DNA of 13,645 nucleotides, taken from a virus. Taxonomy: Duplodnaviria; Heunggongvirae; Uroviricota; Caudoviricetes. Positions within the stretch are counted from its first letter, which is position 1. Each line of letters starts with the position of its first letter. The position numbers and the translations under genes were made by a program. The notes under the pieces were generated by a model. The model saw only the letters and a list, made by a program, of their open reading frames with translations, ran no database searches and had not been told where the DNA came from. Below are positions 1 through 13,093 of this stretch, one piece after another. The stretch lies in IMG/VR virus record IMGVR_UViG_2541047884_000005; one strand, written 5' to 3'.

Positions 1-92
1 CAGAAAAAGCTTATTATGCTTCCATCGGAAACGATGATCTGGCAGCCTGAGTTCACAGATAAAACACTCTCCAGGAAACCCGGGGCGGTTCA
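1..92 (+). mobile_element. IS629-like right end, partial copy truncated by the window edge
   Basis: Positions 1-92 are identical to 6475-6566, the last 92 bp of the complete IS copy including the terminal ...CCCGGGGCGGTTCA inverted repeat. Confidence 0.85.
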
Positions 93-330
93 CTTTGCCT
101 CCCCAGCCGCCGACCATGCCAGATTGAGAGAGTACGGGAAATGCCTCGATAACGATCTTGATCGCTTCGTTGAGACGTTCAATATCGACATCGGAACCCA
201 TATTAGGTGGGCATCCCTGATAGCAGACTCGACCATTTTGGATGCTAACAAGGCTCTTGAGCATGGCATAATTAATTCCATAAAAACTGCAAGGCTGGCA
301 TCCAATCAGGCAAACTGGTGGGTTGTTTGA
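93..330 (+). pseudogene. Possible 3' remnant of an unknown gene cut by the IS insertion (reading frame continues out of the IS end)
   Basis: Open frame from inside the IS end to a stop at 328-330, converging on the terminator at 352-380. No recognisable family, so it may be non-coding. Confidence 0.2.
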
Positions 331-351
331 TGGGTAAATCATGATTACTCC

Positions 352-380
352 TTATAAAAAACCCACCTGACGGTGGGTTT
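352..380 (-). terminator. Rho-independent terminator of the 1403->379 operon
   Basis: Perfect 7-bp stem ACCCACC (361-367) / GGTGGGT (372-378) with a TGAC loop. On the minus strand it is followed by a T-run (reverse complement of 351-360) and sits directly after the stop at 379-381. Confidence 0.7.
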
Positions 381-828
381 AGTCAAACATAGTGTTTCTA
401 AAGTCTCTCGCATACCCTGCTAACACTCTCATTCTATTATGATTGTTAGCAGACATGTGAGCTACAGGATGAAAAAGAGCAATCAATGAATACCTGTTCT
501 CATCAAAAAGATTTTGTGCATAAACGAGAGCGGTATTGGATGTTTTATGCCACTGCAACTTTTGCGGTGTGCTGATATCTGTGCCATTTTTTATTGGCTC
601 AAATTTATTTTCACCAATTGCTAAATGAAGGTGCATAAGGCCTGCATCTTCAATATCAGGAGGTCGATGATAAGAGGTGTCTCTGCCAAAATAGCTGGGC
701 AACGTTCCCGTAGACTTGTAGATGATAAAATCATCTACAAGTGTTTGTTTTAAATCAGGAAACTCAACAAAAACCGGGGAGAAAAAATAGTCAAAACTAT
801 CCTGATTATATTCCACGGTTACTTGCAT
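379..828 (-). CDS. Hypothetical 149-aa protein, second gene of accessory pair; no family recognised
   Basis: ORF with GAGG Shine-Dalgarno overlapping the upstream gene's stop, 8-bp gap to ATG (826-828), and terminator immediately downstream. Hand-counted 60-nt sample (541-600) had 25 G+C. Confidence 0.7.
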   Translation of the reverse strand: MQVTVEYNQDSFDYFFSPVFVEFPDLKQTLVDDFIIYKSTGTLPSYFGRDTSYHRPPDIEDAGLMHLHLAIGENKFEPIKNGTDISTPQKLQWHKTSNTALVYAQNLFDENRYSLIALFHPVAHMSANNHNRMRVLAGYARDFRNTMFD

Positions 829-836
829 GTTTTACC

Positions 837-1403
837 TCAGTGGAAGTTACCAGAGTGAAACACACGAGTCCCGTGCTCAGCAAGCGCACGCAAACCAGCC
901 ATATCTACGGAACTATCAAAAACAACCGGAACACATGAGCGTTGTTTAATAAGACTATTCAGGTTGGTTACGGCAGATCTGGCATCAGCAACAACGATAT
1001 AGATATCTCTTGCGATCTCTTTAAAATCAGCAGAAGCTTCTTTGAATACCGATTTCATTGCCCCTTCAAGTCCTCTCAATTGATGCTCTATCAATCGAGA
1101 CTTTTCTGGTTCAATGATAGACAACACATTGTCTACATTCTCATCGGTAGCGTTTGCAAGAACACGATAAGCGTATTTCAGCATTCGAGACAATTCTTTA
1201 ATCGAAGACACCGCCTCATGAAGCTCATCATTAGCCCGTTCACTGCTGAATGAGGATTGATGGTAAGCGTGCTGAACGTTATCAGTAACAACCACCTCAC
1301 AACTGAACGCAGAAGCTTGCTGTAATAGCAAACCTATTGCGACTCCAGCTTTGGCAGCGTTCAAGCTAAACATTTCATCAATCCCATTAGTCTCATTGCT
1401 CAT
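837..1403 (-). CDS. Hypothetical 188-aa acidic, mostly helical-looking protein, first gene of accessory pair
   Basis: ATG at 1401-1403 preceded by AAGGAGG (reverse complement of 1409-1415) at 5-nt spacing. The ORF-track start at 1433 is a TTG without an RBS, so the 1403 start is preferred. Confidence 0.7.
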   Translation of the reverse strand: MSNETNGIDEMFSLNAAKAGVAIGLLLQQASAFSCEVVVTDNVQHAYHQSSFSSERANDELHEAVSSIKELSRMLKYAYRVLANATDENVDNVLSIIEPEKSRLIEHQLRGLEGAMKSVFKEASADFKEIARDIYIVVADARSAVTNLNSLIKQRSCVPVVFDSSVDMAGLRALAEHGTRVFHSGNFH

Positions 1404-1578
1404 ACAAACCTCCTTCTTATCGGAGATTATCAATAGCTATGCATCCATTGAATACACGCTATGCGCAATAAGTTTACGTCACGTGATATCATTATGCAAC
1501 CACCGTTCTATCACCGACTAACTTTACTCCCACTCCTATACATCATCTGGTATCCTGCGCAAAACTAAGGAGGTTGGT

Positions 1579-1946: not shown

Positions 1947-3962
1947 TTATTGAGCTTCTTTTTGTGATGCCTGTGCGACTCTGGTGAGCGATTGTGTGAC
2001 CGTACTGATCGCTCTGTCATATGCTGTGCTACCTTTTGGCGTATTTGCCAGACGTAACAAGGCATTTCGTATAACAGGGCTTTCGTATGCCTTCGCAGCT
2101 CCTCCTACGACACCAGCAGCAGGAACAACAAACGCAGCCGTTTTTAGCATCCCCGCTAATACTGCTGCGTTTATGATGCCACCACCAACTAACAATCCAT
2201 AAAGCTGCTGACCATTTAAGTTTTGAACGTTCGCTTTTGCCGCGTGTCTTGTATCGTTGAGGTATTTAATAACGCCGTCCAGTTCCTTTCCATGTACGCC
2301 TTTAAAGAAAGTTGCTGATTGCTTCCTGTTCCGGTGTAACGCATTAATAAACTTTTCAACACTAATATTTCCAGACGGATCAGTCGCCTTATCTACAGCA
2401 TTCTGAACTATGGCTGCTCGTGCGTTTTGCCTACCATTGTCATCCAGAAGCCTGTAAAGCTGAGAACGTTCTGATGGGTTTTGGCTAAAAACGAGTTTTG
2501 TTACATCCTCAGGTGTAGCCTTGCCGCTGGCTATTGCCTTTTGAACGCGCGTTCTTCCCATCATGTCATTGAATCTAGCCCATGAGCGATCAACCCTAGA
2601 CATATTGGCAGCTTCTTCTGAGCCTAGTTTTTGGGATACTGCTTTTTTCATATCCGCTGTATATGCCTTGTAGACAATATCGCTGGCTTTCTGGAGCGTG
2701 TCTTTATCAACAGTCTCGTTTGAATTCATGAACCGCTTTCGAAGGTCAGTTCTGTTTTCTCTCGCCAGACGCAGGTCATTGGGTCCGCTGGTGATATCGT
2801 CTTTAAATTGCTGCAAGACTTTTACCGCGGCTCTATCCTGAGATTTGCCCGGGCGGCTTAACACGGCAATCTGATTGTCGATAGCTTTTACCGTGTTTGA
2901 GAGATCGACAGGGGTATCCCCCATAGCGTCAATTATGCGGTTATATCGCTTTCCTGCTGCCTCAATGAATTTTTGTTGCCCTTTAGTCGCAGATTCATAA
3001 AGCTGTTTATCAGAAATGCCACCCAGACCATCGCTAAATGTTCTGACTAAATTTTCTCGTGCTTGTTGTTGATTCAGCCGATTCTTACCGGTTCCAAAAA
3101 AAGGAACTCTTTCGCCTAATGTCTGAGCCTGACTCTGCATAAAGGTTTTATCTTTCAGCGTGTCACTGGTCATTAACGGCAGGTTTCTTTCCGACGCAAA
3201 ATCGACAGCAGCCTTTGCTTCCGGTGACATCTCACCGCGAACAGCCCTGGAAACCGCACTAACTGTATTTTCCAGCCCCTTGCCAACACCACCAATGCCA
3301 GCAGAAATTACCGTTTGTGCAGGATCAATATCTTCTCCGCCAGCAAGGCTGGTGCCACCCTGTAGTGCTAAATCTGTAGCAGCTGATTTCCCTATGGCAC
3401 CAAGCACCGTTCCAGCCCTGCCCGCTGGTGTGAACGCTAACGCATTAGCAAGAAACGAAGTCAGGTCTTGCGGTGATAAACCTGGCTTGTTCAGGGCATA
3501 ATCACCGGATGGCAGGGAAACGATAGTGTTACCCTTCTCATCCTGCCTTAATTTCGCCCCCATACTCTGAAGAATCTTTTCCTGAGACGCGTCGGAGCCG
3601 AAAAGTTGAGACCATCCAGCCTTCAGGGCATCCATGCTTAGTGAGTTCAACTCAGGGGCAGCCCCAACATTTTGCAGTCTCTCCATTTCTGGTGTCATTC
3701 GGCTTTCACCGGTAACGGCATCGCGCATTGCAGCACCTAAAACAGCCCCTTGCTCAGCAGAGCGATCTAGTCCTTCCTTCTGCTGAGTGGCAAGCTGTGC
3801 ATATCCTGATGCAAGTGAGTTGTCTGCTGGCGATTGCTGAACACCTTGTTGTGTTGGCGCTGACTGACCAGCAAAATACTCATCAATGGCGGACCCAATA
3901 TCTTCCGTGCTCGTACCATCAGGAAAGGTAAATGTCTTACCATTTGCAGTTACTTTCATCAT
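1947..3962 (-). CDS. Virion internal / DNA-ejection protein-like, P22 gp16-class, 671 aa
   Basis: Long Ala/Gly/Gln/Ser-rich ORF whose ATG overlaps the upstream gene's stop (ATGA at 3959-3962), in late-gene orientation. Family assignment is by context and composition, not a verified alignment. Confidence 0.6.
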   Translation of the reverse strand: MMKVTANGKTFTFPDGTSTEDIGSAIDEYFAGQSAPTQQGVQQSPADNSLASGYAQLATQQKEGLDRSAEQGAVLGAAMRDAVTGESRMTPEMERLQNVGAAPELNSLSMDALKAGWSQLFGSDASQEKILQSMGAKLRQDEKGNTIVSLPSGDYALNKPGLSPQDLTSFLANALAFTPAGRAGTVLGAIGKSAATDLALQGGTSLAGGEDIDPAQTVISAGIGGVGKGLENTVSAVSRAVRGEMSPEAKAAVDFASERNLPLMTSDTLKDKTFMQSQAQTLGERVPFFGTGKNRLNQQQARENLVRTFSDGLGGISDKQLYESATKGQQKFIEAAGKRYNRIIDAMGDTPVDLSNTVKAIDNQIAVLSRPGKSQDRAAVKVLQQFKDDITSGPNDLRLARENRTDLRKRFMNSNETVDKDTLQKASDIVYKAYTADMKKAVSQKLGSEEAANMSRVDRSWARFNDMMGRTRVQKAIASGKATPEDVTKLVFSQNPSERSQLYRLLDDNGRQNARAAIVQNAVDKATDPSGNISVEKFINALHRNRKQSATFFKGVHGKELDGVIKYLNDTRHAAKANVQNLNGQQLYGLLVGGGIINAAVLAGMLKTAAFVVPAAGVVGGAAKAYESPVIRNALLRLANTPKGSTAYDRAISTVTQSLTRVAQASQKEAQ

Positions 3963-5256
3963 TCCACCGTAAATTGAATGCCTGATTTTGACGTGTAGCT
4001 ACCTCCTGCTGATTGCTGAGTAGCTGGCTGTTGCCTTGATGATTTCTTCCCGCCATTACCAACATTAACGTTATATTGCTGGTTGTAATTGTCGGTATAT
4101 TGCTGAATGTCGCGCATTGATTGTTGCAGCGCTTCAGGACTTGAGAAATCAGGCTTTGGCATACCCTGAAAATACCTATTGGCCTCTGCTTCGGTGTTGA
4201 TGCCAGATGCCCCCATATCTCGGGCTGCTGCAATCCCCTGATTTTGCATTTTGCCCATGATTCGCTGTGCAGCGTTGTATAGCCTCCTCTCCTCAACACC
4301 AGATGCCCTGCTACGAATATCTGCACCAAGAGCAAAAGAACCTGAAGAACCTGTAATACCTGTCATGAAGCCAAGATCGTCAATTGATGCGCCAGAAATT
4401 GCATCAAGATCTTTCTTCATTTCGTAATTCTGTGCATTAGCTGCCGATGTAGCCGGAGCAGCAATAGAACTGGCGGGGACGCGAATCATATTGCCCTCGT
4501 TGTCTATTCCTTCGTAGAACGCATTAGCACCAGCGCCGTGAAGCTTCCTACCAACCGTTACCGTTCTGCCATCTGCCAGTTGCACAACATTCTCCCCGCC
4601 AGCATCAGGACGACCTCGAACACGAAGATATGTCTTTTGTTGCTCTGGAGACAGGCTGTTGAAATATTGATATTCTTTAACAGATGCAGGAACAGCACCT
4701 CCAGCAGTGCGCAGGGAGTTTTCACGGCTAACAGCAATGCTTTGCGCCTTTAAACCTTCCCCAGCTTTATTGCTGCGAATCGTCTCTGCCAACTTGCCAC
4801 GCTCAATATCCCGACCTTCCATTTGATCTTTGATATCGAAATACTTCTCATGACCGAGAGAAAATAGTGCCAGATTACCTGCGAAGTGCTGGAAGCCCTG
4901 CGGGTCATTAACCTGCATTTCCGCAATAGTTTCTGGAGGGATACCTAAACGACGCATCTCCTTTTCGTTATCCATCATGAACCTGCCAAATGCACCCGGA
5001 CCAAGCGACGAAGCGACCTGAGCCTTAAGCGCCAGATTGCCAAAATCATCCCGCTGGGCGTCATCGACATACCCCATGCCTTTACGGACTTCCTCAAACT
5101 CTTCGGGGAATGCTGTAATAAGATTACGCATCTGCTCCCTGTCGCCGGACGCATAAGCATCCGCATAACCTTTCTGGAATGCCGCTTTACGCTCCTGCTT
5201 TTGCTGCTGCTTATAAATATCAGCAACTCCAGCCAGACCACGAAGACCTGTCAGAG
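3959..5256 (-). pseudogene. 5'-truncated ejection-protein-like gene (P22 gp20-class), decapitated by IS629
   Basis: Frame is open without a stop from the ORF-track Met (5131) all the way up to the IS boundary at 5256, so the original start and promoter are gone. Gly/Ala/Gln-rich; coupled to the downstream gene. Confidence 0.6.
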
Positions 5257-5310
5257 TGAACCGCCCCGGGAATCCTGGAGACTAAACTTCCTGAGAAAGA
5301 GGTAAACAGG

Positions 5311-5637
5311 ATGACTAAAAATACTCGTTTTTCCCCCGAAGTCCGTCAACGGGCAGTCCGTATGGTTCTGGAAAGTCAGAGCGAATATGACTCACAATGG
5401 GCGACAATTTGTTCCATTGCTCCAAAGATTGGCTGTACGCCGGAGACTCTGCGTGTCTGGGTTCGCCAGCATGAGCGGGATACCGGGGGCGGTGATGGAG
5501 GGCTCACCACCGCTGAACGTCAGCGTCTGAAAGAGCTGGAACGTGAAAATCGTGAACTGCGCCGCAGTAACGATATCCTTCGCCAGGCTTCCGCTTATTT
5601 TGCGAAGGCGGAGTTCGACCGCCTCTGGAAAAAATGA
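5311..5637 (+). CDS. IS629 transposase OrfA (HTH / leucine-zipper part)
   Basis: 108-aa [23 protein letters not shown]... matches my memory of IS629/IS1203 OrfA. Ends at TGG AAA AAA TGA, the A6 run (5629-5634) typical of IS3-family -1 frameshift windows. Confidence 0.9.
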
Positions 5638-6524
5638 TGCCACTGCTGGATAAGCTGCGTGAGCAGTACGGGGTCGGACCGCTATGCAGCGAACTGCATA
5701 TTGCCCCGTCAACGTATTACCACTGTCAGCAACAGCGACATCATCCGGATAAACGCAGTGCCCGTGCGCAGCGCGATGACTGGCTGAAGAAAGAGATACA
5801 GCGCGTATACGATGAAAATCACAAGGTATACGGTGTGCGTAAAGTCTGGCGTCAGTTGTTACGGGAAGGTATCAGAGTGGCCAGATGCACTGTGGCACGT
5901 CTCATGGCGGTTATGGGACTTGCCGGTGTTCTCCGGGGTAAAAAGGTCCGTACGACCATCAGCCGGAAAGCCGTTGCCGCAGGCGACCGCGTAAACCGTC
6001 AGTTCGTGGCAGAACGACCTGACCAGCTGTGGGTGGCTGATTTTACTTACGTCAGCACATGGCGGGGCTTCGTCTATGTGGCGTTCATCATTGATGTGTT
6101 TGCCGGATACATCGTGGGGTGGCGGGTCTCATCGTCCATGGAAACGACATTCGTGCTGGATGCACTGGAGCAGGCGTTATGGGCCCGTCGACCGTCCGGC
6201 ACGGTCCATCACAGTGATAAAGGTTCTCAGTATGTATCGCTGGCCTACACACAGCGGCTTAAGGAAGCCGGATTACTGGCATCAACAGGAAGTACAGGCG
6301 ACTCGTATGACAACGCGATGGCGGAGAGCATCAATGGTCTTTACAAAGCGGAGGTAATACACCGTAAGAGCTGGAAAAACCGTGCAGAAGTGGAACTGGC
6401 CACACTCACGTGGGTGGACTGGTATAACAATCGACGATTGCTGGAAAGGCTGGGCCATACTCCTCCGGCAGAAGCAGAAAAAGCTTATTATGCTTCCATC
6501 GGAAACGATGATCTGGCAGCCTGA
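5634..6524 (+). CDS. IS629 transposase OrfB (DDE/rve catalytic domain), expressed as OrfAB fusion by -1 frameshift
   Basis: -1 frame relative to orfA, overlapping at the A6 run. Contains DDE-type motifs ([30 protein letters not shown]). Confidence 0.9.
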
Positions 6525-6566
6525 GTTCACAGATAAAACACTCTCCAGGAAACCCGGGGCGGTTCA

Positions 6567-6600
6567 CGGCGGGAATGAGGACCATGACTGTTAAAGAGCA
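6567..6600 (-). promoter_or_regulatory. nutR remnant: intact boxA plus the 5' half of boxB, cut by the IS629 junction
   Basis: On the minus strand: TGCTCTTTAACA (reverse complement of 6589-6600), a 14-nt spacer, then TCCCGCCG (reverse complement of 6567-6574), identical to the first 8 nt of the nutL boxB hairpin at 7714-7731. The next base is the IS terminus. Confidence 0.5.
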
Positions 6601-6606
6601 ATTTGC

Positions 6607-6792
6607 TTATGCCGCTTTGCGGTAAGCGCTTTCTTGATACTTCAGGGCGCCAGCTGTAACGACTTCCAGTCGATAGGCGTCTTTCTCTGGGATGACTTCC
6701 TTCCACTGAGAGACTGCTGCGTCGCTAATGCCTAACGCTTTAGCTACAGCACGCTGGGTTCCGAAGTGGTCGATAACATCTTTCTTGTACAT
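6607..6792 (-). CDS. cro: Cro repressor, P22-type
   Basis: 61-aa MYKKDVIDHFGTQRAVAKALGISDAAVSQWKE... with HTH; matches remembered P22 Cro. GGAG RBS upstream; divergent from the repressor gene across the operator region. Confidence 0.9.
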   Translation of the reverse strand: MYKKDVIDHFGTQRAVAKALGISDAAVSQWKEVIPEKDAYRLEVVTAGALKYQESAYRKAA

Positions 6793-6872
6793 AGACTCGC
6801 TCCGAAATTAAAGAACACTTAAATTATCCACTAAAGGAATCTTAAGTCAAGTTTATTTAAGATGTCTTAACT
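6793..6872. promoter_or_regulatory. OR operator region with PR/PRM; three 18-bp operators
   Basis: Three matches to the P22-type operator pattern ANTNAAG-N4-CTTNANT at 6807-6824, 6830-6847 and 6855-6872. The last abuts the c2 ATG with no RBS, consistent with a leaderless PRM transcript. Confidence 0.65.
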
Positions 6873-7523
6873 ATGAAAACTCAATTGATGGGAGAGCGCA
6901 TTCGCGCTCGGAGAAAAGAACTCAAGATCAGGCAGGCCGCACTTGGAAAGATGGTCGGCGTGTCTAATGTTGCCATATCTCAGTGGGAACGCTCTGAGAC
7001 AGAGCCAAATGGAGAGAATCTTCTCGCCCTGGCTAATGCGTTGAAGTGTTCCCCTGACTATCTGATGAAAGGAGAGGAAAGTCTTTCAAACATTGCCTAT
7101 CACAGTAGGCATGATCCAAGAGGGTCATACCCTCTGATTAGCTGGGTGAGCGCAGGATGCTGGATGGAAGCTGTAGAACCATATCATAAGCGTGCAATAG
7201 ATAACTGGTACGATACAACCGTAGACTGTTCAGAAGATTCGTTTTGGTTGGACGTGAAGGGAGACTCAATGACGGCTCCGGCCGGTCTCAGTATCCCTGA
7301 AGGAATGATAATACTCGTCGATCCTGAAGTAGAGCCGCGTAACGGGAAACTGGTAGTTGCAAAGCTCGAAGGAGAAAACGAGGCAACTTTCAAGAAGTTA
7401 GTTATTGATGCAGGCAGGAAGTTTCTAAAACCACTTAACCCACAATATCCGATGATCGAGATCAACGGAAACTGCAAAATCATCGGCGTAGTTGTCGATG
7501 CAAAACTAGCAAACCTTCCATAA
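6873..7523 (+). CDS. c2: Prophage repressor C2 (CI-type: HTH plus S24 LexA-like autopeptidase domain)
   Basis: 216 aa, near-identical to my memory of P22 C2 (MxTQLMGERIRARRK...GVVVDAKLANLP). Ala-Gly cleavage site (VSAGCWM) and GDSM serine motif present. Confidence 0.93.
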   Translation: MKTQLMGERIRARRKELKIRQAALGKMVGVSNVAISQWERSETEPNGENLLALANALKCSPDYLMKGEESLSNIAYHSRHDPRGSYPLISWVSAGCWMEAVEPYHKRAIDNWYDTTVDCSEDSFWLDVKGDSMTAPAGLSIPEGMIILVDPEVEPRNGKLVVAKLEGENEATFKKLVIDAGRKFLKPLNPQYPMIEINGNCKIIGVVVDAKLANLP

Positions 7524-7547
7524 GGGGGCATTCGCCCCTTTTTTTTT
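7524..7547 (+). terminator. Rho-independent terminator after c2
   Basis: GGGGC (7525-7529) / GCCCC (7534-7538) stem with ATTC loop, followed by nine T (7539-7547). Confidence 0.7.
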
Positions 7548-7550
7548 ATT

Positions 7551-7650
7551 TCCTTTAAAAATCAAAGCCAAACTTAAGTTACGAAAGAAAATTTAAGTTT
7601 TCTTCAAAAATGCTCTTGACCATTAATTAAAGAGATCTTAAATTTAAGCC
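7551..7650 (+). promoter_or_regulatory. OL operators and PL promoter
   Basis: Operator matches at 7626-7643 (ATTAAAGAGATCTTAAAT, perfect to the pattern) and 7591-7608 (one mismatch). TTGACC at 7616-7621 and TAAATT at 7639-7644 with 17-nt spacing, reading toward N. Confidence 0.55.
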
Positions 7651-7689
7651 ATCAGCAGGACGCTGGAAGCCAAACGGAACAGATTGGCA

Positions 7690-7731
7690 GGCTCTTTAAC
7701 ATTGATGGGATTGTCCCGCCGAAATGCGGGA
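7690..7731 (+). promoter_or_regulatory. nutL: boxA GGCTCTTTAACA plus boxB hairpin
   Basis: BoxA-consensus match at 7690-7701. After a 12-nt spacer, stem CCCGC (7715-7719) / GCGGG (7726-7730) with a CGAAAT loop. About 40-80 nt downstream of the predicted PL start, and the same boxA/boxB sequence recurs after cro. Confidence 0.55.
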
Positions 7732-8044
7732 ACCAAAGAGTAGTTGGCTTTGGGGTGACGTGAAGTGCAGCTGCACGACGGCAACCGGAAGATAAGCACC
7801 CGGCGCGTCACCGCCAAAGTCAATTCCATAGGCGTTATGCAGCCGCCACCATATTCAAGAAAGCTGCACAAGAGGTAGGAGGATTTATGTGAATGCATAA
7901 CTTCAAAACCGAGGTTAATTAAATCTCTCGATCCGAGCATCGACCTATTAGGTGGCGAGATGCTCTTTCTGCCCCTCAGTTCGAGGGGCCAGAAACCACT
8001 TTGCAATCACTATCAATTCCAAAGTTGTTTCATCGGAGGTCAAC

Positions 8045-8343
8045 ATGACAGTAGTCATTACATATCTGGCTGACGATAACGCCAGAAATCGCCGCAGAGC
8101 ACGCAGACAGGCTCAACGTGAACAGGCGATGCAAGACAGCGACTGGCGCGAAAAATTGCGCTAAAGCTCTCTGGTTGCGTCAGAGCGGATAAAGCAGCAT
8201 CACTCGGAATCCTTCGCTGCAAGAAGGCAGATGAAGTCGAGAGTAAACAGAATCGTATTTACTACCGCAAGCCACGCAGTGAAATGGGTGTGACTTGTGT
8301 TGGTCGCCAGAAAATGAAATTAGGCAGCAAACCACTTATTTGA
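8045..8343 (+). pseudogene. N: Antitermination protein N, interrupted by a 1-nt frameshift at an A5 run (8151-8155)
   Basis: Frame 2 from ATG 8045 (GGAGG RBS) gives MTVVITYLADDNARNRRRARRQAQREQ... (Arg-rich motif) and stops at 8162-8164. Frame 1 is open from 8122 to the TGA at 8341-8343 and ends ...RKPRSEMGVTCVGRQKMKLGSKPLI, resembling the lambda N C-terminus ...SKPGERGITCSGRQKIKGKSIPLI. Confidence 0.6.
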
Positions 8344-8351
8344 GGTGATAT

Positions 8352-8822
8352 ATGACAAAATCATGGAGCGTACCTTTTCCTGAATCAGAAACTGAACATG
8401 ATGGAATGCCTGTTTTCTGGAGATTCCAAGCGACAGTTGAAGAAGATGGAATCAAAATATTCGCACTTCAATATATAGCTTTTCATCAGACAGAGCATTA
8501 TGCATGGTTGGTTCCTGCGCATTGGATTGTTAATTTTAAACCAGCACCAAATCAGTGGTTACAGGAATGGAAACAAAGGAGAAATAGATATGCAATTAAG
8601 AAAGTAGCAAAAAATGCAGAAAGATCTTTTGCATTCCCGACGAAGAAACTTGCCATTGAAAGTTTATTGCGCCGGAAGAAATACCATTTGATGAGAATCA
8701 AACAAGATTTGGCTGTTGTATCAACTCTTGTTGATGGGATGAAGAATATTGATACATCAACACCAGGTATTGAATATAACTTTGGACACAACCAAGAAAC
8801 AGAAAACTGGGTGTTTTATTAG
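8352..8822 (+). CDS. Hypothetical 156-aa protein, low-GC gene between N and tL1-like terminator; no family recognised
   Basis: ATG at 8352 with GAGGTGA RBS, 8 nt after the N stop. Hand-counted sample 8352-8411 had 24 G+C in 60 nt versus 34 in a c2 sample (6901-6960). No transmembrane segments; basic central region. Confidence 0.75.
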   Translation: MTKSWSVPFPESETEHDGMPVFWRFQATVEEDGIKIFALQYIAFHQTEHYAWLVPAHWIVNFKPAPNQWLQEWKQRRNRYAIKKVAKNAERSFAFPTKKLAIESLLRRKKYHLMRIKQDLAVVSTLVDGMKNIDTSTPGIEYNFGHNQETENWVFY

Positions 8823-9016: not shown

Positions 9017-9187
9017 ATGCAACAGTTCGCTATTGCAGGGGCGGCATCGGTTCGCCCTTTCAACCCGATTTTATCGGTACAGCATTCACGAAAAAACATT
9101 TTAACCGGAGCAGACTTTAAACAACCAAGAATGAAAAGCTTGCTCGAAAAGCTTTGGGATATTTTGAAACAACAAGGCCGTCCATGA
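9017..9187 (+). CDS. cIII: CIII-like protein (FtsH inhibitor, protects CII)
   Basis: 56 aa. MQQFAIAGAA...KSLLEKLWDILKQQGRP resembles lambda CIII (MQYAIAGWP...ESLLERITRKLRDGWKRLIDILNQPGVP). AAGGAG RBS at 6-nt spacing. Confidence 0.75.
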   Translation: MQQFAIAGAASVRPFNPILSVQHSRKNILTGADFKQPRMKSLLEKLWDILKQQGRP

Positions 9188-9342
9188 GTTTTACGGATAA
9201 CTGGTCAGACGAAGAATTCATTCGTCAGATAAAAGAATTAATCGGTAACGAAGGAGATATTCATGTCACTTGCAACCACAGTGAAGGAGAGCAAGTTACA
9301 GAGACGCATGTACACGCAGAAAGCTCTCTGGTATCGCCATAA
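9184..9342 (+). CDS. Small hypothetical protein, 52 aa, in the position kil occupies in lambda
   Basis: ATG overlaps the cIII stop (ATGA at 9184-9187). Positional analogy only; the sequence is not recognised. Confidence 0.45.
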   Translation: MSFTDNWSDEEFIRQIKELIGNEGDIHVTCNHSEGEQVTETHVHAESSLVSP

Positions 9343-9443
9343 TGGTGACCGCGAAGGAATGCGGGTATGCCTTAATTTGTCCCGAGTCGAAGTATTAAAT
9401 CAGCGTTATTTCCTTGGGCCGTGTCCATTCTGAGAGCAATCAT

Positions 9444-10049
9444 ATGAGCAAAGAATTTTACGCAAGACTGGCAGCTATTCAGGAGAATCTGAACGCGCCA
9501 AAGAATCAGTACAACTCATTCGGAAAATATAAATACAGAAGCTGCGAAGATATTCTTGAAGGCGTTAAGCCGTTACTGAACGGTCTGTTTTTATCAATCA
9601 GCGATGAAGTTGTGTTGATTGGTGATCGGTATTACGTGAAAGCCACGGCAACTATTACCGATGGCGAAAACAGTCATACGGCAACCGCTCTTGCACGAGA
9701 GGAAGAAAGCAAGAAAGGAATGGATTCTGCACAAGTTACGGGAGCTACAAGCTCTTATGCACGCAAGTATTGCCTCAATGGTTTGTTCGGCATTGATGAT
9801 GCGAAAGATGCAGATACAGACGAGCATAAACATCAGCAGAACGCAGCAGCAAAGCAATCAAAACCATCACTTACACCTGAACAGGTTCTAAAAGCATTCA
9901 CTGACGCAGCAATGCAGAAAAACACCGTAGAAGAGCTTAAACAGGCGTTCGCCAAAGCGTGGAAGATGCTCGAAGGGACGCCGGAGCAGCACAAAGCGCA
10001 GGACGTTTACAACATCAGACGAGACGAATTAGAAGGGGCAACTGCTTAA
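9444..10049 (+). CDS. erf: Erf, essential recombination function protein (single-strand annealing)
   Basis: MSKEFYARLAAIQENLNAPKNQYNSFGKYKYRSCEDILEGVKPLL... matches remembered P22 Erf. The ORF-track start at 9414 is an upstream alternative; ATG 9444 is preferred. Confidence 0.9.
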   Translation: MSKEFYARLAAIQENLNAPKNQYNSFGKYKYRSCEDILEGVKPLLNGLFLSISDEVVLIGDRYYVKATATITDGENSHTATALAREEESKKGMDSAQVTGATSSYARKYCLNGLFGIDDAKDADTDEHKHQQNAAAKQSKPSLTPEQVLKAFTDAAMQKNTVEELKQAFAKAWKMLEGTPEQHKAQDVYNIRRDELEGATA

Positions 10050-10432
10050 TGGCACATTCGATTACAGTAAGACTAAACAAACCCGCAAGAGAGTTTCAGG
10101 GCGGGGAAAATATCGGATTCAACATCCGTGCTGGCGTTCAGTATTACGATCGCCAGACAAAAAAGAAAGAATGGACAAACTACAGCGCCGTTGTATTTGC
10201 CAAGCCGGGAGCGCAAGCGGATTACTATCGTAGCGTTCTGGTTGAAGGAGGCATTGTAGAAATTACCGGAGAAAACATCAGGGTTGATGTTTATCAGGGG
10301 CAAAATGGTCAATCAATCACTCTTGAATTACTGAATGCAAAGATTGGATTTGCAACTTCAGGAAACAGCCAACAGCAGCAAAGTAGCAATCATCAAAATA
10401 ATCCTGAATACGACGATTCCATCCCATTCTGA
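10049..10432 (+). CDS. Single-stranded DNA-binding protein-like, 127 aa
   Basis: ATG overlaps the erf stop (TAATG). Gln-rich linker and acidic C-terminal tip ...PEYDDSIPF, resembling the SSB ...DDDIPF tail. Confidence 0.55.
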   Translation: MAHSITVRLNKPAREFQGGENIGFNIRAGVQYYDRQTKKKEWTNYSAVVFAKPGAQADYYRSVLVEGGIVEITGENIRVDVYQGQNGQSITLELLNAKIGFATSGNSQQQQSSNHQNNPEYDDSIPF

Positions 10433-10455
10433 TTTAGAAAAATAAGGATTTAATT

Positions 10456-10752
10456 ATGCCAGCGCCTTTGTATGGTGCGGATGACCCGCGCCGCTGTTCC
10501 GGCAATTCCGTATCGGAGGTGCTGGATAAATTCAGAAAAAACTACGATCGAATAATGTCTCTACCGCAGGAAACGAAAGAGGAAAAGGAATTTCGCCACT
10601 GTATATGGCTTGCAGAGAAAGAAGAACGCGAGCGAATTTACCAGACATCAATCCGACCATTCCGCAAAGCCACATATACCCACTTCCCTGAATATATCGA
10701 CCCGCGCCTGCGTAATTACCGCTCACGCTATGGCGCTATCAGTAATGACTGA
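10456..10752 (+). CDS. Hypothetical 98-aa early protein (abc-position gene; identity unverified)
   Basis: AAGGA RBS then ATG at 10456. Sits after erf/ssb where P22 carries abc genes, but the sequence is not recognised. Confidence 0.6.
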   Translation: MPAPLYGADDPRRCSGNSVSEVLDKFRKNYDRIMSLPQETKEEKEFRHCIWLAEKEERERIYQTSIRPFRKATYTHFPEYIDPRLRNYRSRYGAISND

Positions 10753-10846
10753 GGAATTTACCATGAGAGGACTTGCTTAAGAGAAAGAGTTTCGGTTCTG
10801 TTAATGACAACAAATATCTGAATGCGATGTGGCGGAGTGGGAAGAA

Positions 10847-11365
10847 ATGAAACAAATGTCACTAATTGAGATGGATGGTTTTCTGAAAGGTAAATGCATC
10901 CCAAGTGATTTAAAGGTTAACGAAACAAACGCTGAATACCTTGTCCGTAAGTTCGGTGAACTTGAATCAAAACTGGAAACGGCGTTGCGGGAGTGTAGTT
11001 CTGCTGGAATCACGATTGATAACCTTGAGGCTAAATGCGCGAAGATGGCTGCTGAAAATACCTCACTTAAGCAATCTGAGAAGGAATTTAATGACTTTTG
11101 TCGTGAGGAGTTTAGCGAATGGGAAGATGATGTTACTGAAACCCCAGCCACCGATGCTTTTCTGGCTGAAGTGCGGGCGCAGGGGGTGGATGCTGCTATA
11201 GAAGCTGCAAAAAATCTGGTGGCCCAAGAATATGAGTATAAGGATTTCAAAGCGGCGCAGAGTGATTGCTGTATGCACCCTGGTTCAGACCTGGTAGGGA
11301 AGGTTGAAATGACTGAGTGGTTAGTTGACTTTGCTGCCCAGCTTCGCAAAGGAGGCAACCAGTGA
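10847..11365 (+). CDS. Hypothetical acidic coiled-coil-like protein, about 172 aa; start ambiguous (GTG 10829, ATG 10847 or 10856)
   Basis: Long ORF in the PL operon direction; the downstream gene's RBS overlaps its 3' end. Confidence 0.6.
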   Translation: MKQMSLIEMDGFLKGKCIPSDLKVNETNAEYLVRKFGELESKLETALRECSSAGITIDNLEAKCAKMAAENTSLKQSEKEFNDFCREEFSEWEDDVTETPATDAFLAEVRAQGVDAAIEAAKNLVAQEYEYKDFKAAQSDCCMHPGSDLVGKVEMTEWLVDFAAQLRKGGNQ

Positions 11366-11661
11366 CTGTATGTCTTATTGATAAACGTCGACGTGGGCAA
11401 CAAATACCATCTGTTGAAATGCCGAATCACACATGGTTTTGCGTACTTGATATCGATGGTATGGATACGTTGGTTGACACTCGTCATTACTGCGATACCG
11501 CAACAGCTACTCCGGCGAAAGCAAAGAAAATGGCTGCTCTGATAGAAAACTGGACTCCACCTGATGGTTGGTGCAATGGGAATGATCGAGATTGGCACGA
11601 AAAAATGAAGGGCTATATCTGCGATTTTTTACGTAAATGCAACGGCTTCAGGGGGATGTGA
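11362..11661 (+). CDS. Hypothetical Cys-rich 99-aa protein
   Basis: GTG start with AAAGGAGG (11348-11355) at 6-nt spacing, overlapping the upstream stop. Confidence 0.55.
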   Translation: MTVCLIDKRRRGQQIPSVEMPNHTWFCVLDIDGMDTLVDTRHYCDTATATPAKAKKMAALIENWTPPDGWCNGNDRDWHEKMKGYICDFLRKCNGFRGM

Positions 11662-11662
11662 T

Positions 11663-12235
11663 ATGACCAAAATTAACTATCAGGCACTGCGTGAGGCGGC
11701 AGAACGTGCAATTCCGGCAATGGAACGCCTGTTAATGTTGCCAGTTGATGATGATTTGTTAAGTGAACAGGAACTTAAGGATTACGGTGTGGATATTGAT
11801 GCGCTCAACGCCTTCAAATTTCTGACCGGACCAGAAACCGTGCTGGCGCTGCTGGATGAACGGGAAAGAAACCAGCAATACATCAAACGCCGCGACCAGG
11901 AGAACGAGGAAATTGCGCTAACGGTAGGGAAGCTGCGCGTTGAGCTGGAAGCTGCAGAGAAGCGCATTGCAGAACTGGAAGCCGAACCTGTAAGCCAAAC
12001 TTACAAGTTGAACGAGCTGTCGGGCAACTATCCGGTAACTCCGGATGGTTGGATAAGCTGTAGTGAGCGAATGCCCGCTCAAGATGATTGGATTTTAATT
12101 TATTCAAAGCACGGCGAGTATATGGCAGGACAGGTACAAGGGGAATACGTGGAGTTGAGCGACGGCACTTTATCGTGGTTAGGGAACGCCTTGTACTGGA
12201 TGCCTCTACCGGAACCGCCGCAGGAGGTTAATTGA
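11663..12235 (+). CDS. Ead/Ea22-like prophage protein with C-terminal DUF551-type motif
   Basis: C-terminus ...PDGWISCSERMP...YWMPLPEPP matches the remembered DUF551 signature common in enterobacterial prophage early-left regions. Confidence 0.7.
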   Translation: MTKINYQALREAAERAIPAMERLLMLPVDDDLLSEQELKDYGVDIDALNAFKFLTGPETVLALLDERERNQQYIKRRDQENEEIALTVGKLRVELEAAEKRIAELEAEPVSQTYKLNELSGNYPVTPDGWISCSERMPAQDDWILIYSKHGEYMAGQVQGEYVELSDGTLSWLGNALYWMPLPEPPQEVN

Positions 12236-12519
12236 TGGTCTCCTTCGCGAAATATACGATTATTGACTGGATAGCATTCATTCAGGTTTTGCTCATCTGG
12301 TTTTATATGGCTTACAGGAGTGGACAGTGGATTGTCAGTGTAGCCTGTAGCAATGGATGGCGTTGGTGGAACCGAAAGAATAAAAAAGCGCTGGCCTTGG
12401 CTTCGTTTTACGAAGCATTCAATCTTAACAGTCTTCAGCCTGGTTTTGTCGTTGTAGTCACCACTCAAAGCGGCATGACGATACAAATTCACAAGCCAAA
12501 GGAGGAAGGTCGTGGCTAA
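12235..12519 (+). CDS. Small hypothetical protein with hydrophobic Trp-rich N-terminal segment, 94 aa
   Basis: AGGAGG (12223-12228) then ATG 12235, overlapping the upstream stop (TGATG). Confidence 0.5.
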   Translation: MVSFAKYTIIDWIAFIQVLLIWFYMAYRSGQWIVSVACSNGWRWWNRKNKKALALASFYEAFNLNSLQPGFVVVVTTQSGMTIQIHKPKEEGRG

Positions 12520-12796
12520 CCTGCAACTTGCCGTTAAAGGTGAATACTTCGATGCCATGATTCGCGGAGAGAAAACGGAAGAGTATCGCCTGTGTAATGA
12601 CTACTGGAATAAGCGAATTATGTTCCGCGAGTATGACCGCCTGATTATCACAAAGGGATATCCGAAGCGCGACGATTCCAGCCGCAGAATTGACGTCCCG
12701 TATGACGGATATGAAATCAAGACAATCACACATCCGCACTTCGGCGATAAACCGGTAAAGGTGTTCGCTATAAAGGTGAATATCGACAATGAATGA
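12512..12796 (+). CDS. ASCH-domain-like small protein
   Basis: GTG start with AAAGGAGG (12498-12505). IRGEKTEEYR fits the GxKxxExR motif of ASCH domains. Confidence 0.55.
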   Translation: MANLQLAVKGEYFDAMIRGEKTEEYRLCNDYWNKRIMFREYDRLIITKGYPKRDDSSRRIDVPYDGYEIKTITHPHFGDKPVKVFAIKVNIDNE

Positions 12797-12868
12797 TAAT
12801 CCTCGCACTCGCGGGGATTTCTTTTATCTGAACTCGCTACGGCGGGTTTTGTTTTATGGAGATGATAA

Positions 12869-13036
12869 ATGCACTTCCGAGTCACAGGTGAATGGAATGG
12901 AGAGCCATTCAACAGAGTTATCGAAGCAGAGAACATCAACGACTGCTATGACCACTGGATGCTGTGGGCGCAGATAGCACATGCAGACGTAACTAATATT
13001 CGAATTGAAGAACTGAAAGAACACCAAGCCGCCTGA
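12869..13036 (+). CDS. Small hypothetical protein, 55 aa (MHFRVTGEWNGEPF...)
   Basis: GGAGATGA RBS then ATG 12869; ends in a stop that overlaps the 13028-13050 terminator. Preferred over the overlapping 12789-12977 ORF, which has no RBS. Confidence 0.5.
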   Translation: MHFRVTGEWNGEPFNRVIEAENINDCYDHWMLWAQIAHADVTNIRIEELKEHQAA

Positions 13037-13050
13037 TGGCGGTTTTTTAT
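13028..13050 (+). terminator. Rho-independent terminator
   Basis: CCGCC (13029-13033) / GGCGG (13038-13042) stem with TGAT loop, then TTTTTT (13043-13048). Confidence 0.6.
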
Positions 13051-13093
13051 TGCCTGATTTGCAGGTTCGATTCCCTATTCGGAGATAGCACTC

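What the first reader, a model, noticed from the sequence alone, without database searches (positions are those of the whole stretch)
6567..6606. IS629 junction lies inside the nutR boxB hairpin, immediately after cro
Reading the minus strand after the cro stop gives boxA TGCTCTTTAACA, a 14-nt spacer, then TCCCGCCG and the IS terminus. The intact nutL at 7690-7731 reads boxA GGCTCTTTAACA, spacer, boxB TCCCGCCGAAATGCGGGA, so the IS boundary cuts boxB after its first 8 nt. Everything normally downstream of nutR (cII, replication, nin, Q, lysis, head, proximal tail) is absent, and the other side of the IS abuts a decapitated ejection-protein gene. The flanking triplets GAG and CGG differ, so there is no target-site duplication, which fits an IS-associated deletion rather than a simple insertion.
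Basis: seen in the sequence. Interest (0 to 1): 0.6.

Follow-up and report, generated by a model that had tools for sequence, protein, structure and literature searches.

The report
IS629 deletion joint in prophage nutR

Summary
The observation and its interpretation both hold. A complete 1,310-bp IS629 occupies window 5257-6566. On the minus strand, the cro stop is followed by boxA TGCTCTTTAACA, a 14-nt spacer, TCCCGCCG and then the IS end. Phage CUS-3 (99.8% identical), JEP4, HK620 and two near-identical prophages (2 differences in 7,079 nt) continue with ...TCCCGCCGAAATGCGGGA, then tR1 and cII. GenBank annotates that sequence in HK620 as nutR. The window's nutL (7690-7731) carries the same boxB. 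So boxB is cut after 8 of its 18 nt.

The left IS end abuts a gp20-type ejection gene that lacks 51 codons plus 1 nt. The missing stretch is CUS-3 12282-32330 (20,049 bp), running from cII to the gp7-like gene. The flanks are GAG and CGG, so there is no target-site duplication, whereas two simple IS629-family insertions have 3-bp duplications.

The window is a scaffold piece of GCA_000460295.1. It starts at a gap inside a second IS629 copy. The gene order matches CUS-3. No read-level proof was available that both junctions flank one IS copy.

The N gene also has a 1-nt frameshift. This is known biology, so interest is low.

The parts
1..92 (+). Last 92 nt (including IRR) of a second IS629 copy, in the same orientation as the internal copy. 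The window begins here, directly after a 1,865-N scaffold gap.
   Evidence: 100% direct repeat of 6475-6566. The gap is seen in L004.
94..342 (-). 5' fragment (83 codons) of an unidentified ORF, cut at its 3' side by the first IS629 copy.
   Evidence: Sequence; no Pfam hit.
1947..3962 (-). gp16-type ejection (DNA transfer) protein gene, intact.
   Evidence: PF26808 Phage_P22_gp16 on the identical gene in L004.
3959..5256 (-). gp20-type ejection protein gene that has lost its first 51 codons plus 1 nt. This is the left deletion endpoint.
   Evidence: PF16928 Inj_translocase, profile positions 42-212. Intact relatives read ...AATAACGTTG|CTCTGACAGG across the break. Alignment to JEP4 gp20 and CUS-3 11086-12435.
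5257..6566 (+). Complete IS629 (IS3 family), 1,310 bp. IRL is 5257-5281 and IRR is 6542-6566. orfA is 5311-5637, orfB is 5634-6524, and the frameshift pseudoknot is 5592-5708.
   Evidence: Inverted repeats. Rfam ALIL, 120 bits. rve/HTH_21 domains. 99.87% identity to a copy that PGAP labels IS629 family and 96.3% to an O157 IS1203 copy.
6567..6574 (-). Remnant of nutR boxB: the first 8 nt (TCCCGCCG) of the 18-nt hairpin. This is the right deletion endpoint.
   Evidence: CUS-3, JEP4, HK620 and L017 continue with AAATGCGGGA. The truncated RNA no longer forms the hairpin.
6575..6588 (-). nutR spacer (GTCATGGTCCTCAT).
   Evidence: Identical to HK620's annotated nutR.
6589..6600 (-). nutR boxA (TGCTCTTTAACA).
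   Evidence: HK620's annotated nutR has CGCTCTTTAACA at this position.
6607..6792 (-). cro gene.
   Evidence: PF14549 P22_Cro, E = 8.7e-28. 100% identical to many E. coli prophages.
6873..7523 (+). cI/C2-type repressor (HTH plus S24 peptidase), intact.
   Evidence: Pfam. CUS-3 cI annotation.
7690..7731 (+). Intact nutL: boxA at 7690-7701 and boxB at 7714-7731.
   Evidence: Identical to HK620's annotated nutL. Predicted 6-bp stem with a 6-nt loop, -9.7 kcal/mol.
8045..8344 (+). N antiterminator gene with a 1-nt deletion near 8136. The 0-frame product is 39 aa and contains the arginine-rich motif only.
   Evidence: Alignment with CUS-3 and JEP4 N.
13059..13074 (+). attR core of the CUS-3-type prophage. 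Host DNA lies to the right.
   Evidence: Exact match to the CUS-3 att core. Window 9184-13074 is 99.9% identical to CUS-3 36317-40207.

Best explanation
The window is the remnant of a CUS-3-like, P22-type (Lederbergvirus) prophage with an HK620-type N/nut module, in E. coli assembly GCA_000460295.1. One complete IS629 marks a deletion joint. Its right end lies inside the nutR boxB hairpin, just downstream of cro. Its left end lies at codon 52 of the gp20-type ejection gene. About 20 kb that lies between these points in intact relatives is gone. That stretch runs from the 3' half of boxB through tR1, cII, O, P, nin, Q, lysis, terminase, portal, scaffold, coat, head completion and the gp7 homologue.

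The most likely route is inferred, not shown. Two IS629 copies inserted independently in direct orientation, one in boxB (duplicating CGG) and one in gp20 (duplicating GAG). Homologous recombination between them then removed the interval and left one IS with unmatched flanks. A transposase-driven deletion starting from a single copy would give the same end product.

The consequence is clear. pR transcripts run from cro through boxA and 8 nt of boxB, then antisense into the IS. N-dependent antitermination at nutR is impossible and there is nothing downstream left to express. The element is locked in place. It keeps repressor immunity (cI), cro, nutL and the pL recombination genes, with a frameshifted N.
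For: Shown:
- The IS boundaries and both flanks are read directly from the sequence.
- The right flank is 99.8% identical to CUS-3 from the first base after the IS. CUS-3 continues leftward with the rest of boxB, then cII.
- HK620's GenBank record annotates the same sequence as nutR and the same boxB in nutL.
- The near-identical prophages L017 and L019 (2 differences in 7,079 nt) have intact nutR-cII-O-P.
- The left break was mapped with contigs that encode the identical 390-aa C-terminal part of gp20.
- The deleted interval is CUS-3 12282-32330, or 20,049 bp. The JEP4 equivalent is 21,015 bp.
- Simple insertions of this IS family carry 3-bp duplications: GAC in O157 and CAG in L019 gene O. 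PMC3271280 reports 3-4 bp duplications.
- An independent Logan assembly (L006, seen in 4 samples) shows segment 93-5256 bounded by IS629 ends at the same two positions.
- The scaffold order int-neuO-[gap/IS]-gp16-gp20'-IS-cro-cI-N-attR is collinear with CUS-3.

Support for the two-copy route:
- A second IS629 in direct orientation lies 5.2 kb away in the same prophage.
- Relatives carry independent IS629 copies in O, gp20 and gp16.
Against: The sequence comes from a scaffolded draft assembly, and the window begins at a gap inside another IS629 copy. Assemblers can join the wrong unique flanks across a multi-copy 1.3-kb repeat. I found no second, independent assembly that contains the right-hand junction.

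The route to the deletion cannot be decided from the final structure. It could be recombination between two copies or a deletion from one copy. No ancestor carrying either single insertion was found.
Confidence: 0.87

Rival explanations
1. Misassembly. The two junctions are real but belong to two different IS629 copies. The interval of about 20 kb is present in the strain, either elsewhere or unassembled, and the assembler collapsed the repeat.
For: The source is a scaffold with an 1,865-N gap that starts inside another IS629 copy at window position 1. The right junction was not found in any other collection searched.
Against: The junction between unique DNA and the IS end is defined by reads that span it, so truncation of boxB and of gp20 stands either way. 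The order and orientation of all three unique segments match CUS-3. An independent Logan assembly gives segment 93-5256 with IS ends at the same positions and no longer alternative. The mismatched flanks are what a real deletion predicts.
Confidence: 0.08
2. The deletion came first, by some IS-independent event, and IS629 later inserted exactly at the pre-existing joint.
For: None specific. It cannot be excluded on formal grounds alone.
Against: A later simple insertion should carry a 3-4 bp target duplication, but the flanks are GAG and CGG. There is no microhomology between the two break points in intact relatives (...GAG|CAAC versus ATTT|CGG...). It would also require the IS to land exactly on the joint by coincidence.
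Confidence: 0.03
3. The IS lies in the 5' end of cII rather than in a nut site, as the CUS-3 record's cII CDS (31969-32349) would imply.
For: The CUS-3 annotation starts cII at an ATG inside the spacer, 19 nt before the break.
Against: That start is an over-extension. Gene calls in the relatives L012, L017 and L019 give a 97-aa cII that starts at ...CATATGGTTCGTGCAAAC (MVRANKRNEAL...). HK620's curated record places nutR and tR1 between cro and cII on the same sequence. The same boxA-boxB pair recurs upstream of N as nutL.
Confidence: 0.02

Closest known systems
nutR/nutL of coliphage HK620 (GenBank AF335538.1 features 'nutR; putative N-utilization rightward' and 'nutL'), shared with CUS-3, JEP4, IME10 and N7
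   Same: Same position, directly after cro. BoxA is identical from its second base, and the spacer and first 8 nt of boxB are identical. The window's nutL is identical over the whole site. The N gene is of the same type (MTVVITYLADDNARNRRRARRQ...).
   Different: Here nutR lacks the 3' 10 nt of boxB and everything downstream. BoxA starts with T instead of C. N carries a 1-nt frameshift. Even in HK620 the site is labelled 'putative'. I found no experimental N-binding data for this boxB type.
IS629-associated genomic deletions and gene inactivation in E. coli O157 and Shigella (Ooka 2009 and Kusumoto 2011, as cited in PMC9943667; PMC3271280)
   Same: Same IS family, the same habit of sitting in prophages, and the same signature of IS copies without matching target duplications. 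In O157, 26 of 47 sites lack them (PMC3271280).
   Different: The IS here is a non-O157 subtype, 96.3% identical to an O157 IS1203 copy. IEE-type deletions remove the IS itself, whereas here the IS is retained intact. That fits IS-IS recombination or a transposase-driven deletion better.
Prophage CUS-3 of E. coli K1 RS218 (CP000711.1), the neuO-carrying P22-like phage
   Same: 99.9% identity over 3.9 kb up to an identical attR core, and 99.8% over cro-cI-nutL. neuO heptamer repeats and int lie beyond the scaffold gap. The gene order is the same.
   Different: This copy lacks CUS-3 12282-32330. It probably lacks the tailspike and immI region too. It has different ejection-gene alleles (about 76% identity at the gp20 5' end) and a different accessory block between gp16 and the left IS, which includes a YafO-like toxin gene. 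It also carries two IS629 copies.

Membership tests
IS629 (IS3 family) | Length of about 1.3 kb with imperfect terminal inverted repeats beginning TGAACCGCCCCGGG | tested here: met
   1,310 bp. The 26-nt arms at 5256-5281 and 6542-6567 are 92% complementary.
IS629 (IS3 family) | orfA and orfB overlapping, with a -1 frameshift signal; DDE (rve) transposase | tested here: met
   orfA 5311-5637 and orfB 5634-6524. Rfam ALIL pseudoknot, 120 bits. rve, HTH_21 and rve_3 domains.
IS629 (IS3 family) | High nucleotide identity to named IS629 copies | tested here: met
   99.87% over 795 nt to a copy that PGAP labels 'IS3-like element IS629 family'. 96.3% over 1,310 nt to an O157 'IS1203 family' copy.
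IS629 (IS3 family) | 3-4 bp target-site duplication at a simple insertion | tested here: not met
   The flanks are GAG and CGG. This is expected for a deletion joint and does not argue against the identity of the IS.
Lambdoid N-utilisation site (nutR, HK620 type) | Located on the pR transcript between cro and tR1/cII | tested here: met
   Starts 6 nt after the cro stop. Relatives continue into tR1 and cII.
Lambdoid N-utilisation site (nutR, HK620 type) | BoxA matching CGCTCTTTAACA | tested here: met
   TGCTCTTTAACA at 6589-6600 on the minus strand.
Lambdoid N-utilisation site (nutR, HK620 type) | BoxB stem-loop downstream of boxA, the same as in nutL | tested here: not met
   Only 8 of 18 nt remain, and the hairpin is absent from the predicted fold. 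Intact relatives have the full hairpin, identical to nutL. So this is a disrupted former member.
Lambdoid N-utilisation site (nutR, HK620 type) | Cognate N protein binds boxB and confers antitermination | not testable with these tools
   The N gene is present but frameshifted.
CUS-3-like Lederbergvirus prophage | Shared att core, immunity region and early-left operon | tested here: met
   99.9% over 9184-13074 including the attR core, and 96.8% over 6567-8354.
CUS-3-like Lederbergvirus prophage | Complete set of replication, lysis and virion genes (a functional phage) | tested here: not met
   The equivalent of CUS-3 12282-32330 is absent. Only gp16 and a truncated gp20 remain of the late operon.

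The most novel reading that the evidence does not exclude
IS629 does not hit this prophage family at random. Repeated insertions in boxB, O, gp20 and gp16 would reflect a target preference or host-level selection. The effect would be to disarm CUS-3-type prophages while keeping their immunity and accessory genes, such as neuO and the YafO-like toxin gene. The recurring 1-nt N frameshift would be a second, parallel route to the same locked state.
Probability: 0.1. Interest if true: 0.35.

Novelty: already known. Interest (0 to 1): 0.1.

Why it matters
It matters little beyond annotation. It shows that this locus is a defective, non-inducible prophage remnant that still encodes repressor immunity. 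It gives exact deletion endpoints and a strain-specific junction that could serve as a lineage marker. It also flags an over-extended cII start in the CUS-3 record. It raises no new mechanism: IS629-associated deletions and the HK620-type nut sites are both already described.

Tried and rejected
Searches for the same junction elsewhere:
- Complete E. coli genomes: no place covers either the right or the left junction.
- GTDB species representatives, IMG/VR and JGI metagenomes: no hit to the right junction.
- So there is no independent copy of the right junction, and no ancestor with a single insertion.

Getting a strain-private protein to pull this strain's own Logan contig across the right junction:
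- The only two differences from the sister prophages are a synonymous erf site and a host-flank site.
- This route was therefore closed.

Whether the truncated boxB could pair with the IS end to rebuild a hairpin:
- The predicted fold shows none.

Whether the N frameshift is a widespread, possibly programmed feature:
- It occurs on several haplotypes.
- It is rare, in 2 versus 169 complete genomes and 0 versus 103 IMG/VR contigs.
- It is absent from every isolated phage listed that covers the site.
- I treat it as a rare null allele.

Literature:
- The first search was wasted, because 'nutR' matched nutrition words.
- Ooka 2009 is not held.

Full report

Yes. Window 5257-6566 is a complete 1,310-bp IS3-family element.
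- Its left end reads TGAACCGCCCCGGGAATCCTGGAGA and its right end reads TCTCCAGGAAACCCGGGGCGGTTCA.
- It has orfA (5311-5637) and orfB (5634-6524).
- It has the ALIL frameshift pseudoknot at 5592-5708, Rfam 120 bits.
- It has an rve-type transposase.
- It is 99.87% identical over 795 nt to a copy that PGAP labels 'IS629 family'.
- It is 96.3% identical over its full length to an O157 copy labelled 'IS1203 family'. PMC3271280 describes IS1203 as an IS629 isoform and reports 4-5% divergence between IS629 sub-types.

Immediately to the right, the minus strand reads as follows:
- the cro stop (6609-6607), then GCAAAT;
- boxA TGCTCTTTAACA (6600-6589);
- the spacer GTCATGGTCCTCAT (6588-6575);
- TCCCGCCG (6574-6567), then the IS end.

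BoxA GGCTCTTTAACA is at 7690-7701, followed by a 12-nt spacer and boxB TCCCGCCGAAATGCGGGA at 7714-7731.

**2. Does the IS really cut boxB?**

Yes. Phage CUS-3 (CP000711.1) is 99.8% identical to window 6567-7894, starting at the first base after the IS. Its sequence continues TCCCGCCG-AAATGCGGGA-ATACAACGCGCATAAGTTGATGCGCATAACTTCTTATTTG... and then a lambda-like cII (MVRANKRNEAL...).

CUS-3 and JEP4 each contain exactly two copies of the 18-nt boxB, in divergent orientation. The window has only one.

The curated HK620 record (AF335538.1) annotates CGCTCTTTAACAGTCATGGTCCTCATTCCCGCCGAAATGCGGGAAT as 'nutR; putative N-utilization rightward', followed by tR1. It annotates GGCTCTTTAACATTGATGGGATTGTCCCGCCGAAATGCGGGA as nutL.

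The closest relatives found are two prophages, L017 (GCA_948144355.1) and L019 (GCA_000456885.1). They differ from the window at only 2 of 7,079 positions to the right of the IS. Both have an intact nutR followed by cII, O and P.

The boxB RNA is predicted to form a 6-bp stem with a 6-nt loop (-9.7 kcal/mol, z = -2.9). In the nutR context the stem extends to 8 bp. The truncated site joined to the IS end forms no equivalent hairpin.

That test is therefore passed.

**3. The left side of the IS**

The minus-strand ORF that runs into the IS at 5256 is a P22 gp20-type injectosome protein (PF16928, matching profile positions 42-212). It is followed by a gp16-type gene at 1947-3962.

Contigs that encode the identical 390-aa C-terminal portion read ...GGTGCAAATAACGTTG|CTCTGACAGGTCTTCG... 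across the break. Compared with JEP4 gp20 (454 aa) and CUS-3 ECRS218_0011, the first 51 codons plus 1 nt are missing.

In CUS-3 coordinates the retained flanks end at 12281 and resume at 32331. The missing stretch is therefore 12282-32330, or 20,049 bp. The equivalent in JEP4 is 21,015 bp. It holds:
- the 5' end of gp20, the gp7-like gene, and the head-completion, coat, scaffold, portal and terminase genes;
- the lysis genes, Q, the nin region, P, O and cII;
- tR1 and the 3' part of boxB.

**4. Insertion or deletion?**

The flanks are GAG and CGG, so there is no target-site duplication.

Two simple insertions of the same IS family serve as positive controls. An O157 copy is flanked by GAC/GAC. 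An IS629 in gene O of the sister prophage L019 is flanked by CAG/CAG. PMC3271280 reports 3-4 bp duplications at 21 of 47 O157 sites.

The two break points share no microhomology in intact relatives (GAG|CAAC versus ATTT|CGG). The IS ends are complete. So the joint is IS-mediated and is not an illegitimate recombination that happened to trap an IS.

Two routes give this product.
- (a) Two direct IS629 copies, one in boxB and one in gp20, recombined.
- (b) A transposase-driven deletion spread from one copy.

I favour (a), at about 55:35, for two reasons. This prophage demonstrably holds a second IS629 in direct orientation 5.2 kb away (window 1-92). Relatives also carry independent IS629 copies in O, gp20 and gp16. 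The gp20 cases were retrieved through a look-up that can only find disrupted gp20 genes, so their frequency means nothing.

IEE-type deletions, as summarised in PMC9943667, accompany excision of the IS. They fit less well because the IS is retained here.

**5. Context and assembly**

The window is identical to part of scaffold KE701659.1 of GCA_000460295.1. It begins immediately after a 1,865-N gap. The far side of the gap starts in the AAGACTC heptamer repeats of neuO, followed by neuO and a 385-aa integrase. That is the CUS-3 left end.

Window 9184-13074 is 99.9% identical to CUS-3 36317-40207, including the 16-nt attR core at 13059-13074.

The whole scaffold order is therefore int-neuO-[gap with IS629]-accessory genes-gp16-gp20'-IS629-nutR'-cro-cI-nutL-N'-erf...-attR. 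This is collinear with CUS-3.

A Logan assembly of raw reads (L006, seen in 4 samples) independently yields segment 93-5256 bounded by IS629 ends at the same two positions.

Each junction between unique DNA and the IS is robust. What I could not verify at read level is that the junctions at 5256/5257 and 6566/6567 flank the same physical IS copy. The right junction occurs in no other collection searched. I give misassembly about 8%.

**6. How it works now**

After repressor loss, pR would transcribe cro, boxA and 8 nt of boxB, and then run antisense into IS629. The N-binding hairpin is gone, and so is every gene that nutR-modified polymerase would normally reach.

N itself has lost one A near 8136 (CAAGAACAG to CAAGACAG). 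This gives a 39-aa product that keeps the arginine-rich motif but none of the downstream part.

cI (HTH plus S24 peptidase) and cro are intact. The element should therefore still confer immunity but cannot replicate, lyse or assemble. These functional statements are inferences from lambda and P22 biology and were not tested.

**7. Comparison with known systems and verdict**

The site is a disrupted copy of the already annotated HK620-type nutR. The IS is an ordinary IS629. IS629-associated deletions in prophages are well documented (PMC3271280; PMC9943667 and its references 9 and 10).

Novelty: already known. Interest: about 0.1.

Noticed in passing
window 8045-8344 (frameshift near 8136): The N gene has lost one A relative to CUS-3, JEP4 and HK620, giving a 39-aa product. 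The rest of N stays open in the -1 frame. The same 39-aa product occurs in many other prophage contexts, on 6 haplotypes that are often closer to in-frame alleles than to each other. The allele is rare: 2 versus 169 complete E. coli genomes and 0 versus 103 IMG/VR contigs. It is absent from every isolated phage listed that covers the site. An A5 run (GAAAAAT) just before the 0-frame stop could allow a -1 slip. This was not tested.
   Followed up: partly
window 1-342; L004 13040-15000: A second IS629 copy in the same orientation starts the window and cuts an unidentified ORF (94-342, minus strand). The scaffold gap to its left ends in neuO heptamer repeats. The CUS-3 tailspike and immI region (about 4-5 kb) cannot fit in the 1.9-kb gap, so a second IS-associated loss is likely.
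   Followed up: partly
window 379-1433 (minus strand): A YafO-family toxin gene (PF13957, E = 3e-22) is preceded by a 198-aa ORF with no Pfam hit. They sit between gp16 and the left IS, where P22 and CUS-3 carry their mnt/ant immI region. This may be a toxin-antitoxin accessory gene pair. A similar 192-aa plus YafO pair sits next to the repressor in L015.
   Followed up: no
L019 2090-3644; L008 85-109 and 3118-3142; L005 5268-5292: Related prophages carry independent IS629 insertions in gene O (with a CAG duplication), near codon 12 of gp20, and in gp16. The gp20 cases are biased by how they were retrieved: an exact look-up of the 390-aa product, which is only called when gp20 is disrupted.
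   Followed up: partly
L001 1139-1519 (CP000711.1 31969-32349): The CUS-3 record's cII CDS starts at an ATG inside the nutR spacer and reads through boxB and tR1, giving 126 aa. Gene calls in several relatives give a 97-aa cII that starts MVRANKRNEAL. The CUS-3 start is probably an annotation over-extension.
   Followed up: yes
window 7523-7550: A GC hairpin followed by a T-run (GGGGGCATTCGCCCCTTTTTTTTT) lies right after the cI stop. It sits where HK620 annotates tIMM, the terminator of the repressor transcript.
   Followed up: no
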